Assembly: GCA_964018915.1 (NCBI GenBank)
Contig: CAXHRJ010000002.1
Span: 274,155 to 338,154, forward strand
Direction of reading: 5' to 3'
Source of the DNA: an uncultured Bacilli bacterium
GTDB taxonomy: Bacteria; Bacillota_I; Bacilli_A; RF39; UBA660
DNA length: 64,000 bases
Part shown: one piece after another, positions 41,189 to 54,469 of the stretch
Layout: each line of letters starts with the position of its first letter
Numbering within the stretch: position 1 is the stretch's first letter
Program-made: the position numbers and the translations under genes
The notes under the pieces: generated by a model
Seen by the model: only the letters and a program-made list of their open reading frames with translations
Told to the model about the DNA's origin: nothing
Databases searched by the model: none

Positions 41189-41213
41189 AATGAGGCTTAG
41201 AAAGAGGGATATT

Positions 41214-42281
41214 ATGGCAAATAAAAAGAAAAATACAGAAGAAGAAACAGTAAAAAATAAAAAAAATAATGTAAAAAAGAATGATTCAAAGAAAAATGAA
41301 GTAAAAAAAGAACCAGTAAAGAAAGATGAAAAAGTAGAAATTGAAAGCCCTATAAAAAGTGGAATGAGTGAAACAACTAGAGGTATGATTATTGGAATGA
41401 TTATTATGGGGCTTATTTCGATTATTATTATTTTATTAATTTTAGGAAAAAATGATAATGCTAATAAACCTAGTGGTTCTGGAAGTAATTCTTCAAATAT
41501 TACTGCCAGTGCAGATTATGCAAAATTATCAGCAGCAGATAAGAAAAAAGGTAGCGAGGAAATGCAAAAATTTTATCAATATTTTGATAAAGATAAGCCA
41601 ACGTTAATTGTGTTTGCAAGTACAAGTTGTGGATGGTGTGAGTTACAGAAACCAATTGTAGAAAGAATTGGAAAAATGTATGATTTAGATTATCTATTTA
41701 TGGATGCAACAAAATTAGAAGGTAGTGAAGTATATGATGTCATTTCTTATTTAGGGATTGAAGGAACTACACCTACTTCTCTTGTAGTACAAGATGGAAA
41801 AGTTTTAAGCTCATTAAATGGAATGCGAGAAGGTAAAGATTTTGTTGAATTTTTAGTAGATGGTGGAGTTTTATCAAAAGGTTCTACCTATAAAGATGAA
41901 GAAAACTTAATTGTTGTAACTTATGAAAAATTTGAAGAACTATTAAAAGGAAAAGATACAAGTGTTGTTTTATTTGATTTCTATGCAGTTTCAAGTTCTG
42001 TTTGTGGAGAAAGATGTTTAGATCAAAGAATTGTTATTAATGAAATTGCTAAAGAAAATAATATTCCAGTATACCATTTACCTTTAGCGAATACGACAGA
42101 TGATTTTATTGATAAATTAGGAGAATGGGGATATTCAACTGACGATTACAAAGAAAATAAATCTGTAGGAATTCCGTTATTAATGTTTGTACGTGATGGA
42201 AAATTAGTATGGTATCAAAATGGTAATATGACAGAAGATGATATTCGTACAGAAATGAAGAATCATAAAATAATTAAATAA
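41214..42281 (+). CDS. Membrane-anchored protein with two thioredoxin-fold domains (CGWC and CGERC)
   Basis: Lys-rich N-terminus, one TM helix, a Ser/Gly linker, then two Trx-like modules each with a CxxC-type motif and a cis-Pro TPT/IP motif. AGAAAGAGGGA RBS before ATG 41214. Confidence 0.6.
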   Translation: MANKKKNTEEETVKNKKNNVKKNDSKKNEVKKEPVKKDEKVEIESPIKSGMSETTRGMIIGMIIMGLISIIIILLILGKNDNANKPSGSGSNSSNITASADYAKLSAADKKKGSEEMQKFYQYFDKDKPTLIVFASTSCGWCELQKPIVERIGKMYDLDYLFMDATKLEGSEVYDVISYLGIEGTTPTSLVVQDGKVLSSLNGMREGKDFVEFLVDGGVLSKGSTYKDEENLIVVTYEKFEELLKGKDTSVVLFDFYAVSSSVCGERCLDQRIVINEIAKENNIPVYHLPLANTTDDFIDKLGEWGYSTDDYKENKSVGIPLLMFVRDGKLVWYQNGNMTEDDIRTEMKNHKIIK

Positions 42282-42302
42282 ATGATTTAGGAAGTGGTTT
42301 AT

Positions 42303-43166
42303 ATGAGTAAAGATAAGAAAAAAGAAAATCTTATTAAGAATAAAACTTTAATGGTTGGTCTTATTTCTGTTATGATTATTGTTTTAGTATCGTTATTAGG
42401 ATATGTGATTTTTACTAAGATATCTAAATACCAAGACGAGAAAAAAACAATGCAAGAATTTCGTGAAAAGATGGAAAGTAAAGAGTTATCCATTATTTAT
42501 TACATGCATACTGATTGTCATTTTTGTGAAATGGAAAAACCTATTTTAGAACAAATTGCTAAGGACTATGATTTTGAGTATTTAACAATTGATTCTAATA
42601 AATTGACAAAAAAAGAAAATAATGAAGTAAAAGATGCTTTAAAAATCGAAGGAAGAACGCCAACTATCGCAATTGTAAAAGATGGTGAAGTGCAGGCTAC
42701 TCATGTAGGATATCTTGAAGGTTATAAATTAGTAGAGTTTTTTGTGAAAGCTGAATTTTTAGATGAGGGTTCAACTTATAAACCTGAAGCCAATTTAACT
42801 TTTATAGAATTTTCTGAGTTTGAAGAATTAAAAGAAGAAGAAAAAACATCTGTTTTGGTGTTAGGCTCAGCAACTTGTGACTATTGTAAAGCTGTACGTC
42901 CTATTTTAAGTAATCTTAGCAAAGCTTATAATATTCCAATCTATTATTTAGGATTAAATTATATTGGAAGTTCTAATGGTGACAAGTTTGAAAGTTATTT
43001 GAAAGATATGGGATATGATGAAGAGACTTTTGTAAACTCTGGTAAGTATAGTACACCAGCAGTATTAGTTATTAAAAACGGAAAAATAGTTTCTCATATA
43101 GAAGGTTACCAAGATACAGCTGATTATATCAAATATTTTAAAGAGCAAAAAGTGATTGAAGAATAA
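42303..43166 (+). CDS. Membrane-anchored double thioredoxin-fold protein (CHFC and CDYC); paralog of 41214..42281
   Basis: Same architecture, with a conserved inter-domain linker (GSTYK.E.NL....EFEEL). GGAAGTGG RBS. Confidence 0.6.
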   Translation: MSKDKKKENLIKNKTLMVGLISVMIIVLVSLLGYVIFTKISKYQDEKKTMQEFREKMESKELSIIYYMHTDCHFCEMEKPILEQIAKDYDFEYLTIDSNKLTKKENNEVKDALKIEGRTPTIAIVKDGEVQATHVGYLEGYKLVEFFVKAEFLDEGSTYKPEANLTFIEFSEFEELKEEEKTSVLVLGSATCDYCKAVRPILSNLSKAYNIPIYYLGLNYIGSSNGDKFESYLKDMGYDEETFVNSGKYSTPAVLVIKNGKIVSHIEGYQDTADYIKYFKEQKVIEE

Positions 43167-43187
43167 AGGGAAAAGGGAGTGCTATAA

Positions 43188-44474
43188 ATGAAATGTGAGA
43201 GTTGTGGACATGTTAATAGTTCTTACTCTATTGTTTGCGAAAAATGTGGGACTCCTTTAAAAATAGAAGAAAATGAATTGCTACAAAAAAAGTATCATGA
43301 TAAAGGTAAGCATATTGATATAGAAGAAATAGAAGAGATACATGATGAACCTGATTTCAATAAAATAAGAAAACAGGTTAGAAGAATGATTGTATTCATA
43401 ATTGTCTTTGTTCTTGCTTACCTTCTTTATTTTTTAGCAATTTATCTATTAGATGAAGGATCAAAAGAGGTTTTAAATACTTATTCAGATTATATGGAGA
43501 ATTCTTCATTAGCGTTATTTTATTTTGGCGATGAAAGGGAATTAGATTCTCTTTGTGAAGACTATTCTAAAAATTATGGATTTGATTATTTAAATATTCA
43601 AACTAATAAAATTAGTAAAAAAAATAGAAAAAAAATTCAAAAAGAATTAAATGTTTACAATGTTACTGCGGCCTTAGTGATTGTAAAAAATGGTGTTCCT
43701 GTAGCCTCTTTTACACAGATAGATGAGGAAGAAAAGATATTGGAGTTTTTACAGATTAATGAAGTAATTCCCCAATATTTAGGGGATACAGAAGCAGAAT
43801 TAGCATCCTTTAAAAATGCTTTTGAATCTGAAAATCCAGTTTTATTATATTTCCCCACTAGCTATCATAACAATATAGAAAATAGTGAAGAGTCTATTAA
43901 GTCTATAGCAGAGCAGTACGATTTAGAGTATCATGAAGTAAAAGGATATTTACTAAGCAAAAGACAATTATTAAAAATAATGTCACAGTTAGGTTATACA
44001 GAAATACAGGAAGATTTGATTTTATATATTGTTGATGGAAAAGTAGAAAAAGCAGTAACGGATACAGAGAAAAAGTCTTATTTTAAATTATTGTCATCTT
44101 ATGGTATAATTGATACATCAAGTGCAGATTACTTGGTTCACATTTCTGAAGAGCAATTTTTCGAATTGATGAAAGATGAAAAATCAAAACATGTTATTTT
44201 GATTGGCTCTGATGATTGTAATTATTGTGATAGGGTAAAACCAGTTTTGGGACAAATTGCTAATCAAAAACAGATTGTTATCTACTATTTGAATGTTTCA
44301 AATAAGGGGGATGCAATTTCAGAAAAAGTAAAGGAAATGGGATTGGAGACTGGGATTACTAATACACCATTTATGATGATTGTAGAAAAAAATACAATAT
44401 TGGGACATATAGTTGGCCCAGCTAAAAAAGATTTATATTTAGAAACATTAACAGAGATGGGTGTAATACGATAG
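43188..44474 (+). CDS. Zinc-ribbon + TM + double thioredoxin-fold protein (first domain lacks CxxC, second CNYC); third paralog
   Basis: N-terminal CxxC-x11-CxxC (CESCGH...CEKCG), a TM helix, and two Trx-like modules with cis-Pro (NTPF). Confidence 0.55.
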   Translation: MKCESCGHVNSSYSIVCEKCGTPLKIEENELLQKKYHDKGKHIDIEEIEEIHDEPDFNKIRKQVRRMIVFIIVFVLAYLLYFLAIYLLDEGSKEVLNTYSDYMENSSLALFYFGDERELDSLCEDYSKNYGFDYLNIQTNKISKKNRKKIQKELNVYNVTAALVIVKNGVPVASFTQIDEEEKILEFLQINEVIPQYLGDTEAELASFKNAFESENPVLLYFPTSYHNNIENSEESIKSIAEQYDLEYHEVKGYLLSKRQLLKIMSQLGYTEIQEDLILYIVDGKVEKAVTDTEKKSYFKLLSSYGIIDTSSADYLVHISEEQFFELMKDEKSKHVILIGSDDCNYCDRVKPVLGQIANQKQIVIYYLNVSNKGDAISEKVKEMGLETGITNTPFMMIVEKNTILGHIVGPAKKDLYLETLTEMGVIR

Positions 44475-47971: not shown

Positions 47972-48382
47972 ATGGCAAAAATATTTACAGGTACAGGTAG
48001 AAGAAAATCTTCAGTAGCTCAAGTTAAAATGACCGCTGGAAGTGGAAAAATTACTGTTAATGGTAAAGATGTTCATGAGTTCATGCCTTATGAAACTTAC
48101 GTAATGGATTTAATGCAACCATTAGTTGCAACAAATAATGAAAAGACATTTGATATTGAAGTAAAAGTTACTGGTGGTGGAGCTAGTGGGCAAACTGGAG
48201 CAATCCGTTTAGGTATCACAAGAGCTTTACTAGAGTATGATGAAGCGAATGAAGGTAATGAAGATAGCTATAGAAAAATCTTAAAAAGAGCAGGATTTGT
48301 TACAAGAGATTCAAGAGCTAAAGAACGTAAAAAACCAGGTCTTAAAGCAGCACGTCGTGCACCACAATTCTCAAAGAGATAA
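47972..48382 (+). CDS. rpsI: 30S ribosomal protein S9
   Basis: [12 protein letters not shown]... and C-terminal [17 protein letters not shown]. Confidence 0.9.
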
Positions 48383-48399
48383 AATCAATACAGTTCATA

Positions 48400-48432
48400 T
48401 ACCTTGGAAACTTTGTTTTCAAGGTTTTTTCT
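48400..48432 (+). terminator. Rho-independent terminator
   Basis: CCTTGGAAAC-(tttg)-TTTTCAAGG followed by TTTTTT. Confidence 0.55.
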
Positions 48433-48572
48433 TGTTTTAAAATATTCTTATCATGATTAGAAAATTGATAATAAGGAAAATTTTTATATGTGGTAATAAT
48501 TTTAGCAAAAAATGTAGAAAAAAAACGAAACATATGTTAAAATGTGATTAGATAGAATAATAAGATAGAGCC

Positions 48573-50171
48573 ATGGGGTGGAAGTATATGTTAAAATATG
48601 AACGATTAGGATTAGAGAATACGATAGAAAAGTTTTTATCAATTAAGCAGAAAGAGAATGCTAAAAATATTCGTAAAGCAGTAAGAAGAAAGAAGAGAAA
48701 AGATTTAAAGCTAGGAGAAAGGCTTGCTTCTATTTTTGACTTGCATTTTCGTAAATCTTTTGCTATTGATTTAGCTGATTTAATAAAATCCTTTAAAGAA
48801 TTCAATACTACTGCAACGATTTATACATTACCAGCCGATTTAAAAAAGGATTTAGAATGTATAGGAGCTCACACAACAAGTTCTACTTTTTCTGAATTAT
48901 CTACTGCGATTAATTCTGCTTTATCAGAATCGCATGCTTCCTCTAGGCTTTCTTTAGCACATAAGAATAATAGATTATTAAGGGCATTAAAAAAGTCTAA
49001 ATTAGAATCAAAATATATTACCTATTGGGAAGATGGTAAGGCAATTAATTCGTCATTAGAGGCAGGTATTATTCATTTAGGTAATAAAAAACTTTCTGCT
49101 TTAAGCTTAGCTGAAAGAAAAGGTCTAGTGCTATTTGATACTACTAATGCAGATACAATAGAGCCACCACTTTCTGATGAAGAGGCTTGTTTGACGGAAT
49201 TAGAAGATATGGTTAGAAAAGGAGAAATAGCAGAAAGTGAAATTACTAAGAATGTAAGTGAAATTCGAATCATATTTAGAAAGCGACATGTTTTAGATGA
49301 GTTAAATGCTAAAATTTGGAAGCTTATATGCAACCTTCAAAAAGAAAAAAGTAATAGTGGTGTAGATTTTTCGGCCGCTAATAAAATATTACAAACTATT
49401 TATGATAGAAATAGAAGAGAAATTTCTAGATGTGATAATTATCTAGGCAGATTCGATTTTGCTACTCTAGTGGAAAAAGTAGCATGGGTTAATAATAAAA
49501 GGGAACAAGAGGCATGGACTCGTGCTCATTTAGAAGCTTTAGATAAAGTTGGAGAAGTAACTCCTAGAAGTCCACAAGTAATAGAACAAATTAAAAGGAG
49601 TAATAGAATTACAATGGAGGCTAAGAAAGATTTGCGTCATATAGCAATTCAAGAGCTTCAATTGAATGGAGAATTGGTGGAAACACATCAACATGTAGGA
49701 AGTGTGGTTGTTCCAGATTCTGTTGATGAGGACACTCATGAATCCATGATTCGTAAGAAAATAGATGAAATGATAGCGATTGCTATCCAAACTCCAGAAG
49801 AAAGAGCAGTATCTTATTTGAGGGATATGGGAATTAATACAACGAAAACCGCTGTAGATGAGATGCCACAAGAATCTGCTGAAAGTTATCGTGAAATATT
49901 TAAGGATGAATCTTATAGCTTTGATATTGAAAGAATTAGAAAGATTAAAGAATTAATCGATGCACAGAGAAGAGATAAAGCAAATTCTATTTGCAAAGAA
50001 TATATTCGTTATCGTGCTGCTTTAGGTGATAAACGTTCTGCTTTAACTTTCTCAGAATATGCGAGAGCTCTATATTTACAAGAAAACATGGATATATCTA
50101 TGATTGATGAAAAAATCATGACAGATGATGTAGCACTAGTAGCTGATGAGGTTGGCGAAAGAGTTCGTTAA
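48573..50171 (+). CDS. Hypothetical protein (about 530 aa), no recognised domain
   Basis: Long ORF; start is either 48573 or 48588. Its C-terminal ~35 aa (CKEYIRYRAALGDKRSALTFSEYARALYLQEN) are paralogous to the small ORF 50315..50545. Confidence 0.5.
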   Translation: MGWKYMLKYERLGLENTIEKFLSIKQKENAKNIRKAVRRKKRKDLKLGERLASIFDLHFRKSFAIDLADLIKSFKEFNTTATIYTLPADLKKDLECIGAHTTSSTFSELSTAINSALSESHASSRLSLAHKNNRLLRALKKSKLESKYITYWEDGKAINSSLEAGIIHLGNKKLSALSLAERKGLVLFDTTNADTIEPPLSDEEACLTELEDMVRKGEIAESEITKNVSEIRIIFRKRHVLDELNAKIWKLICNLQKEKSNSGVDFSAANKILQTIYDRNRREISRCDNYLGRFDFATLVEKVAWVNNKREQEAWTRAHLEALDKVGEVTPRSPQVIEQIKRSNRITMEAKKDLRHIAIQELQLNGELVETHQHVGSVVVPDSVDEDTHESMIRKKIDEMIAIAIQTPEERAVSYLRDMGINTTKTAVDEMPQESAESYREIFKDESYSFDIERIRKIKELIDAQRRDKANSICKEYIRYRAALGDKRSALTFSEYARALYLQENMDISMIDEKIMTDDVALVADEVGERVR

Positions 50172-50182
50172 TAATGAAGATA

Positions 50183-50216
50183 GCCTTGAAAGGATTCCTT
50201 TCAAGGCTTTTTCTTT
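50183..50216 (+). terminator. Rho-independent terminator
   Basis: Perfect 12-bp stem AGCCTTGAAAGG/CCTTTCAAGGCT followed by TTTTC. Confidence 0.6.
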
Positions 50217-50314
50217 ACACTAGAAAATAACTTATTTGTTAAAATAGTAGAAAAATAGAATTGATTATGTTAGAATAAAAGTATAAAAAGTAGACTAAAG
50301 TTAGAGGGGGATTC

Positions 50315-50545
50315 TTGATGACAAATGAAGAACAAATGAAATTAAATGATTTAGAAAATAATGGTGCCCAAAAAGGTTTTAGTGAACAAAAATCTAATAC
50401 TATCTATGCACAGTATCTTAGATATCGCATATCATTAGAAGATAAGAAAAGTGCACTTAAATTTTCAGAATTTTGCAATTTTATGTATTCACAACAAAGT
50501 ATCAATAATTCTAGTGTAGAAGAAGTAAAGGGGAGACGTATGTAA
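50315..50545 (+). CDS. Small hypothetical protein (76 aa), paralogous to the C-terminus of the 532-aa protein
   Basis: YAQYLRYRISLEDKKSALKFSEFCNFMY matches YIRYRAALGDKRSALTFSEYARALY. RBS AGAGGGGGA. Confidence 0.45.
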   Translation: MMTNEEQMKLNDLENNGAQKGFSEQKSNTIYAQYLRYRISLEDKKSALKFSEFCNFMYSQQSINNSSVEEVKGRRM

Positions 50546-50745
50546 TGAAAGATGTAGAGGAACAGAAAAAAACTTTAAATTTAGAGACGAGAGAGTTGCT
50601 AGCTATTATGGATATGATAGATGGAAATACGAGAGAATATGAAAATTATGTTGAAAATACATTAAATGAAAGCGAGTTTTTAGATTTACAAATTAAATTA
50701 GTTTCAGAAGTTAAACATCGGCTAATTGATATATTTAGAGATTAA
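50545..50745 (+). CDS. Small hypothetical acidic helical protein (66 aa), translationally coupled
   Basis: TAATG overlap with the upstream ORF; no motif recognised. Confidence 0.4.
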   Translation: MKDVEEQKKTLNLETRELLAIMDMIDGNTREYENYVENTLNESEFLDLQIKLVSEVKHRLIDIFRD

Positions 50746-50747
50746 AT

Positions 50748-50780
50748 AAGTCTTGAAAATGCATTCAAGACTTTTCTTCT
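50748..50780 (+). terminator. Rho-independent terminator
   Basis: AAGTCTTGAA-(aatgca)-TTCAAGACTT followed by TTCTTCT. Confidence 0.5.
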
Positions 50781-50803
50781 ATTGTATATAAGGGGGGAAA
50801 TTT

Positions 50804-52300
50804 ATGTTTTTAAAAAAATGTAAAAATTGCGGTATAAAAATTCCAAGAAAAGCAAATTTCTGCCCAGGATGTGGACATCAAAAAAAGAAGAATATTGCTT
50901 TTTTCTTTTTAAAAATGTTAATCCTATTTTTATTCGTTCAAGTAATTACTACTTCTATACCAGCTATTCTTACTGGTTCTATTCTTCATTATAAATATGG
51001 GATAAATTTTGTTATAGAAGCAATTTGGGGAATGACAATTTTAATTGTTATGTTATTAAGTGGTAATTCGTATGTATTTACACAAAAAAGGGAAAAATTC
51101 TTTCAATCTTTAAAATTAGGTGCAGCTTTTTTAGGTATGACCTTTCTTATTCTGCCAGGATCTATTTCTTCTTTACAAGGAACGAGCATCTGGGTATGTA
51201 TTAATTTAATCTTGTATTGTGCAGCCATAGGAATTACAGAAGAATTTTTATGTAGGGGCTGGGTTCAAAATGAGTTCTTAGAGAGATTTGGTAAAAATAG
51301 AAAACAAGTTATTTTATCAATTGTGTTATCTTCTTTTATATTTGGTGGAATGCATATTAGTAATATTTGGAATGCTAATCAAGGAGTTTTTGAAACCTTT
51401 TTGCAAGTAATTCAAGCAACTGCTTCAGGAGCTCTCTTAGGTAGTATCTATTATCGTACAAAGAATATTTGGACAGTAGCTTTTTTACATGGTTTCTATG
51501 ATTTCGCTATTATGCTTGGAGACGTTAGTGTTATTAAATCTTGTACAACAGGAGAACCAACTCCTTCTATTGCTATGTATCATATATTTACTTCTCTTTT
51601 GGTAATTGCATTTTATGTTATTAGTTCTATGATATTACTTAGAAAGAGTACAATGAATAAAATGTTAGATGCTAATTATGAACAAAATGTAGAAGAATAT
51701 TTAGCAGAGTCTAAATTTACTAAAAACTTAAAAATGGCCTTGATTATAGTAGTGATTATCTTCTTTTTACCATTTGGAAGTAATTTAGAAGGATATGAAG
51801 ATTACTATATTTGTTATAGTTATGATGAGTTAGAAATTGGTGATTTTGATGAGCACTATTTCAATCGTCTTACTTATACTATCACATATGATACAACAGA
51901 TATTATAACAGATTTACCACTCCATTATGAATTTGAGGTTTTCTATGATGATAAAATAGGTATTCAAAATAAAATAACAAAAGAAGTTATTTATTTAAAT
52001 TATGAAAATATATATGGTTTTGAAGTAATTGATAATGAGGATACTTTTATTATTCTGATTTATGATTATGATGATGATTCAATCATCTATTATATGAAGA
52101 TGTATAAAGAACTCCTTTCTAATGATTGGCAAACTTTACAGGCAATGAAAACATCATTTCAATCTTATAGTATGCCTAATTTAGGTAAATTGGGATATTT
52201 AACAGTAGAGGAAACTAATTATAAATATCCACTTATGATATCTAGTATGGGTGATTATTTTATCATTGATGAAGAAGATGATTTATATTTATTAAGATAG
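50804..52300 (+). CDS. CPBP-family (CAAX/Abi) intramembrane metalloprotease with an N-terminal zinc ribbon and a large C-terminal soluble domain
   Basis: CKNCG...CPGCG ribbon. Multi-TM region with CPBP motifs EEFLCRGW (EExxxR), FGGMHISN (FxxxH) and HGFYDF. About 200-aa C-terminal extension. Confidence 0.65.
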   Translation: MFLKKCKNCGIKIPRKANFCPGCGHQKKKNIAFFFLKMLILFLFVQVITTSIPAILTGSILHYKYGINFVIEAIWGMTILIVMLLSGNSYVFTQKREKFFQSLKLGAAFLGMTFLILPGSISSLQGTSIWVCINLILYCAAIGITEEFLCRGWVQNEFLERFGKNRKQVILSIVLSSFIFGGMHISNIWNANQGVFETFLQVIQATASGALLGSIYYRTKNIWTVAFLHGFYDFAIMLGDVSVIKSCTTGEPTPSIAMYHIFTSLLVIAFYVISSMILLRKSTMNKMLDANYEQNVEEYLAESKFTKNLKMALIIVVIIFFLPFGSNLEGYEDYYICYSYDELEIGDFDEHYFNRLTYTITYDTTDIITDLPLHYEFEVFYDDKIGIQNKITKEVIYLNYENIYGFEVIDNEDTFIILIYDYDDDSIIYYMKMYKELLSNDWQTLQAMKTSFQSYSMPNLGKLGYLTVEETNYKYPLMISSMGDYFIIDEEDDLYLLR

Positions 52301-52418: not shown

Positions 52419-54008
52419 ATGAGTTTAGCTGATTTTTTAAAACCAAAAGACTTATTTTATCCTAATGTATTTTATGAGGGAGAATGGATTTTAGGGGGAG
52501 AATTTAATCCTGCTAATGTATATGAAGATTATTTATTATTAAATGCAAAAGTAGAGAATGGTGTTAATTGTTACCAAAGTTTTTTAGAAAAAAATTATTA
52601 TAGGCCTTTAACTGATATTTTAAATTCTAATAGCTTATCCCATACCTTTTTTCCTAAAATAGTATTAACAGTTAATGATCAAGAAGGAAATAGGACTGCT
52701 AATTTTGCTATGAGCGTATTTGTCTATCAACAAATATTAGGCTTACTTTTTGCTGGAGATGCTCAAAATAGGTTTCAAGAATTTATAGGAACAGTAAATA
52801 CTATCGAGGAGTGGATTCCGTTTTTAAAGCAATTATTAAAAGAAGATAGAAGAGTATACTTCGATGTTCAACAAAATCGAACAAAGTCTGCAAATTATGG
52901 AAATGTTTATCAATTATATTTAGATTATGTAAGACAATCTCAAAGCATGATGTCTTTTGATGAATTTCTAGATGGAAAAATAAGTGCTAGTACGAAACTT
53001 TTAGTATCTGCTAGATATTATCCAGAACTATTTAAAAAAGAAATTCCAAGCGAAGAATTAGTGAGTGCTTTTGATTATGATACTTTTTGTTTGGTAGCAG
53101 CTAAAAGTGCTTTAGATAGTTGTAGGACTACAGAAACGATTTCGAATTTAGTAGATAACTCTGCTGGTTATGTAAAGCTTTATTTAGATGCAGTAGAAAG
53201 AGTAAGACAAGAGAATCCTAATTATGATTGTGCTATGAAACAGCTTGATGAGAATGGCAATGTACATAAAATCAGAATACAAGATATTCAAAGAGAGTAT
53301 GAGGCACTACTTGCTAGGCATCCAGAATTTTCTTTCATTATTATAAGTGAAAATGAGGCTTCTGCTTTATTACGTAAAGAAGGAGTAGAAAAAGCAGGTA
53401 TAGATTGTTTTGATTTTAGTAAGAAAGATAATTCTGCAACTTTGGAAGCTATTTTAAAGAGATTAAAAGAGGATAGGGAATTAGCTGCTGAATGGGAGTT
53501 TATTAGAAAAGGTTCTGATGAATCAACAACTAGTATTCATCATTCCTCAGCCCTGTATCCTACGCAAGCTTTACCTGAAGATGAGAAGATAAGGCGGATG
53601 ATTGTTGGTCGTGAATATTTAGAAAATAGTGATTATGTTTATAAAATTTATGGTATTCATAAGTTTGAAGGATATATAGGTTATATTTATCCAAACGGTA
53701 CTGTTATTTTTGAAAAATATTACGAAAATATAAAAACTAAAAAGGTTGCATCTTCATCTGCTACCTATGTTATGCGTTTAGATAATTTTATGGAAATGTC
53801 AAAATTAAGTAAAACAGAAATTATTAGAATTATTCATAGGGATAGTGGAGCAAATGTAAAAAGAATCTTTCATAGAGAAAATATGGAAAGGTGGAAAAGC
53901 GATATTTTTAGAGTAATATCAGGAAGTGAGTATACAGAAGAAGTAATGAATTATATTAATGCGCTAATTTCCCGTAATGATTTGAAAAAAAGTGAGGTGA
54001 AGTCATGA
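52419..54008 (+). CDS. Hypothetical protein (529 aa)
   Basis: GGTGA RBS; an extended -10 TGaTATAAT lies upstream. No recognised motif. Confidence 0.45.
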   Translation: MSLADFLKPKDLFYPNVFYEGEWILGGEFNPANVYEDYLLLNAKVENGVNCYQSFLEKNYYRPLTDILNSNSLSHTFFPKIVLTVNDQEGNRTANFAMSVFVYQQILGLLFAGDAQNRFQEFIGTVNTIEEWIPFLKQLLKEDRRVYFDVQQNRTKSANYGNVYQLYLDYVRQSQSMMSFDEFLDGKISASTKLLVSARYYPELFKKEIPSEELVSAFDYDTFCLVAAKSALDSCRTTETISNLVDNSAGYVKLYLDAVERVRQENPNYDCAMKQLDENGNVHKIRIQDIQREYEALLARHPEFSFIIISENEASALLRKEGVEKAGIDCFDFSKKDNSATLEAILKRLKEDRELAAEWEFIRKGSDESTTSIHHSSALYPTQALPEDEKIRRMIVGREYLENSDYVYKIYGIHKFEGYIGYIYPNGTVIFEKYYENIKTKKVASSSATYVMRLDNFMEMSKLSKTEIIRIIHRDSGANVKRIFHRENMERWKSDIFRVISGSEYTEEVMNYINALISRNDLKKSEVKS

Positions 54009-54469
54009 CTTTAGAAAACTACCTATTAGGGCATATCATAGAAGAGAAACCAATAATTGAAGAGTTATTAAAAATTGATAATGCTGTTCAAAAAACAAAT
54101 TATACATATGCTACTTTTCTAAACAGAATAAGAAATGTCAAAAAATTAAATCTTTCTTTACCAGAACTTTGTAATTTTGTAACAGATGGAGATCCAGATA
54201 CTGTATATAATATTTTAATTACTTCCTCTTTTGTTAAGGGGATTCATATTGATAATTCTTTTGTTGCTCTTAATAAGTGGTTAGTAGAAAGAACGAAGGA
54301 ATATTATCAGGATAATAATAGAGAATTTAGTCTTTCTTTAGATATAGAAAAGGATTATAATAAATATATAGAAGAAGATACCAGTATTATTCTTTATGGG
54401 TTTGCCGAATTTGTAGAGGGAATGGAAGAAGTATTTCAAGATAAAAATATTGCTGTTATCAAAAAATAG
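54005..54469 (+). CDS. Hypothetical protein (154 aa), translationally coupled (ATGA overlap)
   Basis: Overlapping start and stop; no motif. Confidence 0.4.
   Translation: MTLENYLLGHIIEEKPIIEELLKIDNAVQKTNYTYATFLNRIRNVKKLNLSLPELCNFVTDGDPDTVYNILITSSFVKGIHIDNSFVALNKWLVERTKEYYQDNNREFSLSLDIEKDYNKYIEEDTSIILYGFAEFVEGMEEVFQDKNIAVIKK

What the first reader, a model, noticed from the sequence alone, without database searches (positions are those of the whole stretch)
48573..50745. Large unknown protein followed by a small ORF paralogous to its own C-terminus and a translationally coupled second small ORF
The 532-aa product has no recognisable domain. Its last ~35 residues (CKEYIRYRAALGDKRSALTFSEYARALYLQEN) recur in the downstream 76-aa ORF (YAQYLRYRISLEDKKSALKFSEFCNFMYSQQS) behind a strong terminator and a separate promoter region. 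The 76-aa ORF overlaps a 66-aa acidic helical ORF by TAATG. A detached copy of a C-terminal module plus a coupled small partner resembles modular or swappable-domain arrangements seen in toxin-immunity and polymorphic-toxin loci and some defence systems. That analogy is speculative.
Basis: partly seen in the sequence, partly recalled or inferred. Interest (0 to 1): 0.55.

Follow-up and report, generated by a model that had tools for sequence, protein, structure and literature searches.

The report
Truncated paralog kept with its partner
The small ORF that copies the big protein's C-terminus is the surviving tail of a second, ~620-residue paralog that lost its middle by an in-frame deletion. 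It is still conserved and still translationally coupled to a tiny acidic partner protein, in an uncharacterised gene family of uncultured gut Bacilli, and nothing points to a toxin or defence system.

Summary
The large ORF (A, probably 527 aa starting at 48588) has no known domain. Its residues 469-513 match the 75/76-aa ORF (44% identity, E 4e-12). A terminator and an extended -10 promoter lie between the two, and the small ORF overlaps a 66-aa acidic ORF by TAATG.

Relatives explain the layout. The ancestral unit is a 500-620-aa helical protein (B) ending in a ~45-aa module, followed by a stop/start-overlapping 63-70-aa partner. This pairing was seen in all 36 partner-containing loci examined. 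In this clade B duplicated to give A. B then lost ~545 internal codons, leaving "mini-B" with B's promoter, SD, start, module and coupling.

Mini-B is not decaying: its module core has dN/dS 0.10-0.14 across three lineages, and the partner has 0.08-0.22. The module-plus-partner pair also follows two unrelated N-terminal bodies.

Pfam, NCBIfam, PADLOC, PHROGs, PDB sequence and fold searches, and phage and plasmid searches found nothing. Contexts are housekeeping chromosome.

My best reading is that the module docks the co-translated partner. Binding is inferred, not shown. The toxin-immunity and defence analogy is not supported. This is a moderately interesting, undescribed family.

The parts
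48401..48425 (+). Terminator-like hairpin ending the rplM-rpsI unit, upstream of gene A
48515..48543 (+). Promoter-like site of gene A (TAGAAA-N17-TG-T-TAAAAT, extended -10). It is followed by a leader that is conserved in 7 orthologous loci.
48588..50171 (+). Gene A: a 527-aa all-helical protein (532 aa if it starts at 48573). It is a tandem paralog of the B family and has no partner gene of its own.
49977..50111 (+). C-terminal module of A (residues 469-513 in the 532-aa numbering), the stretch shared with mini-B
50182..50208 (+). Intrinsic-terminator-like hairpin after A (12-bp stem followed by a T run)
50248..50276 (+). Promoter-like site of mini-B (TAGAAA-N17-TG-T-TAGAAT). It is homologous to the promoter region of full-length B in related genomes.
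50304..50311 (+). Shine-Dalgarno sequence GAGGGGGA of mini-B, 6 nt before the ATG at 50318
50318..50545 (+). Mini-B: a 75-aa ORF (76 aa from the TTG at 50315). It is the remnant of a ~620-aa B paralog after an in-frame internal deletion, and it is under purifying selection.
50399..50497 (+). Module core of mini-B (TIYAQYLRYRISLEDKKSALKFSEFCNFMYSQQ), dN/dS 0.10-0.14
50527..50547 (+). Coupling junction: SD AAAGGGGAG lies inside the last codons of mini-B, and TAATG is the stop/start overlap
50545..50745 (+). Partner: a 66-aa acidic helical-hairpin protein. It is the most conserved component, and its family has 398 clusters.
50748..50773 (+). Terminator-like hairpin ending the mini-B/partner transcription unit

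Best explanation
The locus holds two tandem paralogs of an undescribed, cytoplasmic, all-helical protein family from uncultured low-GC gut Bacilli, plus that family's obligate small partner.

History, shown by comparison:
1. The ancestral unit was one gene, B (500-620 aa), ending in a ~45-residue, mildly basic two-helix module. It was followed by a 63-70-aa acidic helical-hairpin partner whose ATG overlaps B's stop codon.
2. In the ancestor of this narrow clade, B duplicated in tandem and gave A, which has no partner gene of its own.
3. B then lost about 545 internal codons in frame. What remains is mini-B. It keeps B's terminator-proximal promoter, SD, start codon, module, the SD for the partner and the TAATG overlap.

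Mechanism, inferred:
- The module is the docking site for the partner.
- Coupling makes the two proteins in fixed proportion on the same mRNA.
- Mini-B survives because the partner still needs a cognate module, for folding, stability or control.
- A has taken over whatever the long helical body does.
- Mini-B is therefore a natural minimal version of the interaction domain, comparable to a microProtein. It could also compete with A for the partner or for the module's other ligand.
For: Shown:
- A and B are paralogs over their full length (E 2e-23 and 3e-10).
- Related genomes L004, L005 and L016 carry A, then a full B of 616-620 aa, then a 66-aa partner in the same position.
- Mini-B groups with the B C-termini (TIY, ALKFSE...VKG[KR]xx end), not with A.
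- The DNA upstream of mini-B is homologous to the A-B intergenic region of full-B genomes, z 4-9 against shuffles.
- In the NJ tree, A (94% bootstrap) is sister to the co-resident B clade, full-B genomes branch basally, and mini-B genomes are derived.
- Mini-B is intact in three lineages whose A proteins are only 62-88% identical. Its module core has dN/dS 0.10-0.14 (Fisher p <= 3e-4) at dS 0.8-2.7. The partner has dN/dS 0.08-0.22.
- Every partner gene examined, in 36 partner-containing loci, lies directly behind an ORF ending in the module. In L029 and L030 that module is degenerate.
- The stop/start overlap is TAATG in 14 of 17 representative loci tabulated, adjacent TAA-ATG in 2, and ATGA in 1.
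- The pair also follows unrelated bodies: P0076 shares only the 46-aa module (hhalign E 4e-9), and the L042 protein shares only its last 58 aa.
- Mini-B and the partner are lost together in L009 and L001.

Inferred only: physical binding. The charges are complementary, with the partner at pI 4.6 and the module core at about pI 8.9.
Against: - There is no direct evidence that the module and partner bind.
- A keeps a well-conserved module in genomes that lack the partner locally (L001, L009). The module must therefore have a role beyond holding the partner, or a partner is encoded elsewhere in those genomes.
- Two lineages lost mini-B and the partner, so the pair is dispensable there.
- The monophyly of the mini-B/loss group has only 41% bootstrap support.
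- No expression data were available.
- The biological role of the whole family is unknown. Fold searches returned only generic helical bundles.
Confidence: 0.6

Rival explanations
1. Mini-B is kept only as a translated leader. Its translation delivers ribosomes to the partner's start (TAATG, with the SD inside its last codons), and the peptide itself has no function.
For: The partner's SD and start are embedded in the mini-B 3' end in all loci. The first ~25 residues of mini-B are poorly conserved and carry indels.
Against: The 33-residue module core is constrained at the amino-acid level (dN/dS 0.10-0.14) while synonymous sites are near saturation (dS 0.8-2.7). This would not be expected if only the act of translation mattered. 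A much shorter leader would be enough for coupling.
Confidence: 0.12
2. This is a toxin-immunity, polymorphic-toxin or anti-phage defence locus. A would be a toxin or effector, mini-B an orphan C-terminal cassette, and the 66-aa protein an immunity factor or antitoxin.
For: There is a superficial similarity: a large protein, a detached C-terminal copy and a small acidic coupled ORF. The module-plus-partner pair occurs behind different bodies, and in one case it lies next to serine recombinases (L042).
Against: PADLOC, Pfam, NCBIfam and PHROGs give no hit for any component. The C-terminus and the small protein are the most conserved parts rather than the variable ones. The pair sits next to rpsI, nusG/sigH, uvrA or lepA, not in islands. 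Phage and plasmid collections give no matches. A can exist without the 'immunity' gene (L001, L009). Mini-B has its own promoter, SD and start, unlike orphan toxin cassettes.
Confidence: 0.05
3. Mini-B is a non-functional pseudogene remnant that has not yet decayed, and only the partner is a real gene.
For: It arose by a large deletion, and two related lineages have lost it entirely.
Against: The reading frame is open in three lineages separated by dS 0.6-1.6, while both alternative frames carry 4-11 stops. The module core shows significant purifying selection. The promoter, SD and start are all conserved.
Confidence: 0.05
4. The module plus partner is a portable targeting or assembly cassette: a C-terminal signal with its cognate small chaperone or adaptor. 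It would deliver different N-terminal bodies to a common destination such as a secretion machine, the division site or the spore surface. Mini-B would be an empty cassette or a regulator.
For: The same module-plus-partner pair sits behind at least three unrelated bodies and behind no body at all. The partner is far more conserved than the bodies, as expected if it contacts a conserved machine. The partner is a helical hairpin with a conserved loop.
Against: No secretion genes are conserved in the neighbourhoods. The proteins have no signal peptide or transmembrane segment. No structural match to known chaperones or WXG-type proteins was found. The L042 fusion may simply be a B gene disrupted by a mobile element.
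Confidence: 0.15

Closest known systems
MicroProteins: small truncated paralogs that keep only the interaction domain of a multidomain protein. This concept comes from plant transcription-factor biology and is cited from my own knowledge.
   Same: Mini-B is a 75-aa single-module protein derived from a ~620-aa ancestor by loss of everything except a conserved interaction-type module. It coexists with a full-length paralog (A) that carries the same module.
   Different: The origin here is an in-frame internal deletion in a bacterial operon. The module's ligand appears to be a separately encoded, coupled small protein. No dominant-negative activity has been shown.
Polymorphic-toxin loci with orphan C-terminal cassettes and immunity genes (CDI, Rhs, LXG).
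   Same: There is a large protein, then a detached copy of its C-terminal region, then a small coupled ORF.
   Different: The polarity is reversed: here the C-terminus and the small protein are constant. There is no toxin or trafficking domain and no secretion-system neighbours. The remnant has its own promoter, SD and start. The context is housekeeping chromosome.
Small acidic helical chaperones that bind a C-terminal helical segment of a larger helical client, such as FliS with flagellin or the type III secretion chaperones. Cited from my own knowledge.
   Same: The partner is a small acidic all-helical protein encoded next to a helical client, and the client's conserved C-terminal helices are the likely binding site. 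Co-synthesis is enforced by coupling.
   Different: There is no sequence or fold match to FliS, FliT or T3S chaperones. No flagellar or secretion genes are nearby. The partner is a two-helix hairpin of 66 aa.
WXG100/Esx-type helical-hairpin pairs of type VII secretion. Cited from my own knowledge.
   Same: The partner is a ~70-aa helical hairpin with a conserved motif in the loop, encoded in an operon with a helical protein.
   Different: There is no WXG motif, no Pfam WXG100 hit, no EssC-type ATPase in the flanks, and the large protein is not LXG-like.

Membership tests
Polymorphic toxin system (CDI/Rhs/LXG type) | An N-terminal trafficking or secretion domain, conserved among variants | tested here: not met
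   A, B and mini-B have no Pfam or NCBIfam domain. The N-terminal bodies are the variable part.
Polymorphic toxin system (CDI/Rhs/LXG type) | A variable C-terminal toxin domain paired with a fast-evolving cognate immunity protein | tested here: not met
   The C-terminal module is the best-conserved region. The downstream small protein has 70% mean column identity and dN/dS 0.08-0.22.
Polymorphic toxin system (CDI/Rhs/LXG type) | Linkage to a secretion system (T5/T6/T7SS) or to mobile islands | tested here: not met
   The 3.5-8-kb flanks of about 35 loci show housekeeping genes: rpsI, nusG, sigH-like, uvrA, lepA. There are no phage or plasmid matches.
Known anti-phage defence systems | A match to a PADLOC-DB protein model | tested here: not met
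   No hits at E <= 0.1 for A, mini-B, the partner, two B proteins and two neighbours.
Type II toxin-antitoxin module | A recognisable toxin or antitoxin fold or family, with growth inhibition that the partner neutralises | tested here: not met
   Family membership was tested and not met. Toxicity itself cannot be tested with these tools.
MicroProtein-like truncated paralog (a concept, not a sequence family) | A small single-domain protein derived from a larger multidomain ancestor | tested here: met
   Mini-B (75 aa) is orthologous to the last ~55 residues of the 616-620-aa B protein and keeps B's upstream region.
MicroProtein-like truncated paralog (a concept, not a sequence family) | The retained domain is maintained by selection | tested here: met
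   dN/dS of the module core is 0.10-0.14, p <= 3e-4.
MicroProtein-like truncated paralog (a concept, not a sequence family) | It acts by binding or titrating the partners of the full-length relative | not testable with these tools
   This needs interaction assays or multimer modelling.
WXG100/Esx family | A ~100-aa helical hairpin with a WXG loop motif that matches PF06013 | tested here: not met
   The partner is a hairpin, but it has no WXG motif and no Pfam hit.

The most novel reading that the evidence does not exclude
The ~45-aa module and the 63-70-aa partner form a previously undescribed portable two-part cassette: a C-terminal docking signal plus a cognate small adaptor or chaperone. 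Evolution has attached it to several unrelated N-terminal bodies in gut Bacilli. Mini-B would be a bacterial microProtein, a body-less cassette that is retained to regulate or buffer the partner and the full-length paralog A.
Probability: 0.2. Interest if true: 0.6.

Novelty: new variant of a known kind. Interest (0 to 1): 0.4.

Why it matters
- **An undescribed family.** The locus defines a protein family and a discrete module-plus-partner pair with no entry in Pfam or NCBIfam. The pair is nonetheless common in human and animal gut metagenomes: 398 partner clusters, one of them seen in about 300 assembly blocks.
- **A natural deletion experiment.** Evolution removed about 545 codons and kept only the module and its coupling to the partner, under purifying selection. 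This points directly at the functional interaction surface. It also gives experimenters a minimal 75 + 66-aa pair to test.
- **A caution for genome scans.** A "detached C-terminal copy plus small coupled ORF" can be a truncated paralog rather than a toxin cassette.

Tried and rejected
1. Pfam, NCBIfam, PADLOC and PHROGs scans of all components and of distant family members gave no credible hit.
2. PDB profile searches with the family and partner alignments gave nothing.
5. A 30-sequence family alignment was too divergent for the genome scan. A 12-sequence B-type alignment worked.
6. P0058 (73 aa) looked like a second, independent mini-B. I rejected it because its contig has a run of Ns inside a full-length B gene.
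7. B appeared by eye to have an extra LRxxAIxxLE...KMxEL unit relative to A. Self-BLAST found no significant internal repeat.
9. A full-text literature search returned nothing relevant.
10. An Rfam scan of 48300-50900 found no real RNA family.
11. A sporulation link was considered because cwlD, spoIIP-like and yqxA-like genes lie nearby in some loci. I did not adopt it: the contexts differ between clades, and the promoters look like sigma-A extended -10 sites.
Full report
**1. What is in the window**

Region 48.4-50.8 kb lies directly after trpS-rplM-rpsI, on the leading strand of a ~30% GC chromosome. In order it contains:
- a terminator-like hairpin at 48401-48425;
- a promoter-like extended -10 site at 48515-48543;
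- the large ORF A, 48573-50171;
- a 12-bp-stem terminator at 50182-50208;
- a second extended -10 site, TAGAAA-N17-TGTTAGAAT, at 50248-50276;
- the SD GAGGGGGA;
- a 75-aa ORF from the ATG at 50318 (76 aa from the TTG at 50315) to 50545;
- a 66-aa ORF, 50545-50745, whose ATG overlaps the previous TAA as TAATG and is preceded by AAAGGGGAG;
- another terminator at 50748-50773.

A's real start is probably the ATG at 48588 (MLKYERL, 527 aa). Orthologs start there behind GGGG[TA]GG, and the database copy P0001 is 527 aa.

**2.

A residues 469-513 align with residues 26-70 of the small ORF at 44% identity over 45 residues, E 4e-12. A family HMM and a module-only HMM hit the small ORF at 1e-15 and 5e-17. 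No Pfam, NCBIfam, PADLOC or PHROGs family matches any of the three proteins.

**3. What the small ORF is**

A has only nine close homologs among 5.8 billion clustered proteins. Their contigs show a graded series:

| Locus | A identity to window | Layout after A |
|---|---|---|
| L005, L004 | 50-55% | 617-620-aa protein B, then 66-aa ortholog of the window's 66-aa ORF with TAATG overlap |
| L016 | not computed | 616-aa protein B, then the same 66-aa ortholog |
| L006 | 88% | 72-aa ORF, 66-aa ORF, CPBP protease (same as the window) |
| L010 | 62% | 72-aa ORF, 66-aa ORF, CPBP protease (same as the window) |
| L009 | 70% | neither small ORF |
| L001 | 57% | neither small ORF |

- B is a full-length paralog of A (E 2e-23 over the C-terminal 176 residues and 3e-10 over the N-terminal 250).
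- B ends ...ANTIYKQY[IV]RYLA[ST]VE[DN]K..ALKFSEY....Y.....[DI]ISMVDEE.KGKSI. That is the sequence of the window's small ORF, not of A's C-terminus. The shared diagnostic residues are TIY, ALKFSE and the ...VKG[KR]xx end that carries the partner's SD.
- The DNA between A and the small ORF is homologous to the A-B intergenic region of genomes with full-length B. This covers the terminator, the TAGAAAAA...TGTTAnAAT promoter box and the SD, with z 4-9 against shuffles for most pairs.

The small ORF is therefore "mini-B". It is B after an in-frame internal deletion of about 545 codons that spared the promoter, SD, start, the last ~55 codons and the junction with the partner.

**4. Direction of events**

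In an NJ tree the A proteins form a clade (94% bootstrap). That clade is sister to the B proteins of the same genomes (100%), and both sit inside the wider B-type family. A is therefore a tandem duplicate of B. Genomes with full-length B branch basally among the A sequences. The mini-B genomes and the two genomes lacking the pair are derived. L009 is sister to window+L006 (100%) and L001 is sister to L010 (64%). This implies one truncation followed by two independent joint losses of mini-B and the partner. The node uniting the derived group has only 41% support.

**5. Mini-B is a maintained gene, not debris**

It is open in three lineages, while the other two frames carry 4-11 stops. Whole-ORF dN/dS is 0.25-0.40. 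The 33-residue module core has dN/dS 0.10-0.14 at dS 0.8-2.7 (Fisher p 3e-4 to 4e-5). The first ~25 residues are free to vary and carry indels. The partner has dN/dS 0.08-0.22.

**6. The conserved unit is the module plus the partner**

- An exhaustive profile search of 1.84 billion representatives found 70 family members, mostly 510-620 aa.
- In 11 species-representative genomes, all uncultured Bacilli, Erysipelotrichaceae or Bacillota gut MAGs, a B-type gene is always followed by a 66-69-aa partner with overlapping or abutting stop and start.
- The partner family has 398 clusters, all 63-70 aa. It is far better conserved (mean column identity 70%) than the large proteins (about 25-33% identity to the alignment reference).
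- A partner-seeded metagenome scan gave 19 loci. All 19 partners sit directly behind a module-bearing ORF. In L029 and L030 the module is degenerate.
- Across 17 representative loci tabulated, the junction is TAATG in 14, TAA-ATG in 2 and ATGA in 1, always with an SD inside the last codons of the upstream ORF.
- The pair also follows unrelated bodies. P0076 (590 aa, two tandem modules) shares only the 46-aa module with the A/B family (hhalign E 4e-9), and a 63-aa partner homolog (E 4e-17) overlaps its stop. The L042 protein joins an unrelated 416-aa body to the last 58 residues of an L017-like B (88% identical), followed by the partner.
- A is the only module-bearing type without an adjacent partner.

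**7. Structure and physical character**

**8. Context**

The neighbours differ between clades and are housekeeping: rplM-rpsI here; rlmB, a sigH-like gene, secE and nusG; uvrA; spoIIP-like and yqxA-like genes with lepA. Promoter-like sites upstream of A, B and mini-B are sigma-A-type extended -10 boxes. These are consensus matches only. There are no phage or plasmid matches for A, the partner, B+partner DNA or the L042 body.

**9. Interpretation**

Shown:
- the homology relationships;
- the deletion origin of mini-B;
- purifying selection on its module and on the partner;
- the invariant, coupled module-then-partner order, independent of the body;
- the chromosomal housekeeping context;
- the absence of any toxin, defence or secretion signature.

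Inferred: the module is the partner's docking site, and coupling ensures stoichiometric co-synthesis. Mini-B persists because the partner still needs a cognate module, while A supplies the function of the long body. Mini-B may also act like a microProtein towards A.

Against a purely partner-centred view, A's module stays conserved in genomes that lack the partner locally. The module therefore probably has another ligand, or self-associates.

The toxin-immunity and defence analogy fails each membership test that could be run.

**10. Verdict**

This is an undescribed, lineage-restricted family with a neat natural truncation. It is moderately interesting and not extraordinary.

Noticed in passing
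L042:2062-3692, flanked by L042:1-~1000 (- strand) and L042:3918-5621 (+ strand): A 474-aa protein joins an unrelated 416-aa body to the last 58 residues of an L017-type B (88% aa identity; 84% nt identity over 384 nt that include the partner). Two large serine-recombinase genes flank it. It is either a B gene disrupted or fused by a mobile-element insertion, or a genuinely body-swapped module protein. The body has no Pfam hit and no phage match.
   Followed up: partly
L026:5739-7961 (also L027): A 590-aa protein (P0076) has a different body and two tandem copies of the module. A 63-aa partner homolog overlaps its stop as ATGA. An 86-aa acidic ORF precedes it and ends 1 nt before its start. 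Related tandem-module proteins are P0066, P0070, P0071, P0073 and L047.
   Followed up: partly
window 50804-52300: A 498-aa CPBP/Rce1-like intramembrane protease has an N-terminal zinc ribbon and a ~200-residue C-terminal extension with no known domain. It is present only in the mini-B genomes and L009. It is absent from the full-B genomes L005 and L016, and L004 has a 330-aa membrane protein in its place. This intergenic slot is therefore an indel hot spot.
   Followed up: partly
window 52419-54469: A 529-aa gene and a 154-aa gene overlap by 4 nt. Neither has a Pfam, NCBIfam, PADLOC or PHROGs match. The pair is conserved downstream of A in this narrow clade (window, L001, L004, L005, L006, L016; the 529-aa gene also in L009 and L010, cut by the contig end) but is not next to B+partner in more distant genomes.
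   Followed up: partly
window 48505-48572: The promoter and leader upstream of A (AAAAATGTAGAAAAAAAA-N7-ATATGTTAAAATGTGATTAGATAGAATAATAAGATAGA) is nearly invariant across 6-7 orthologous loci whose coding regions have dS around 1. This suggests a conserved regulatory element in the 5' UTR.
   Followed up: partly
L029:1594-3692 (also L030): A 616-aa B-like protein has a degenerate module in which the tyrosines are lost (...QQIKRCVEARRNGEPIPQFSDLI...). It is still followed by a partner, and that partner carries a 12-residue N-terminal extension.
   Followed up: no
L028:349-711: Database protein P0058 (73 aa) looks like a second, independent mini-B but is an assembly artefact. A run of Ns interrupts a full-length B gene in a 996-nt scaffold.
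   Followed up: yes
window 41190-44474: Three consecutive paralogous genes (363, 290 and 428 aa) carry weak PedC-like/thioredoxin-like hits. A bPH_3-domain gene and a 420-aa membrane-anchored protein of unknown function follow them. The whole set is conserved in L001.
   Followed up: no
L016 (CAZRIC010000014.1): The record is labelled 'uncultured Muribaculaceae bacterium', yet the contig carries the rplM-rpsI-A-B-partner locus typical of the Bacilli. The contig is probably mis-binned.
   Followed up: no
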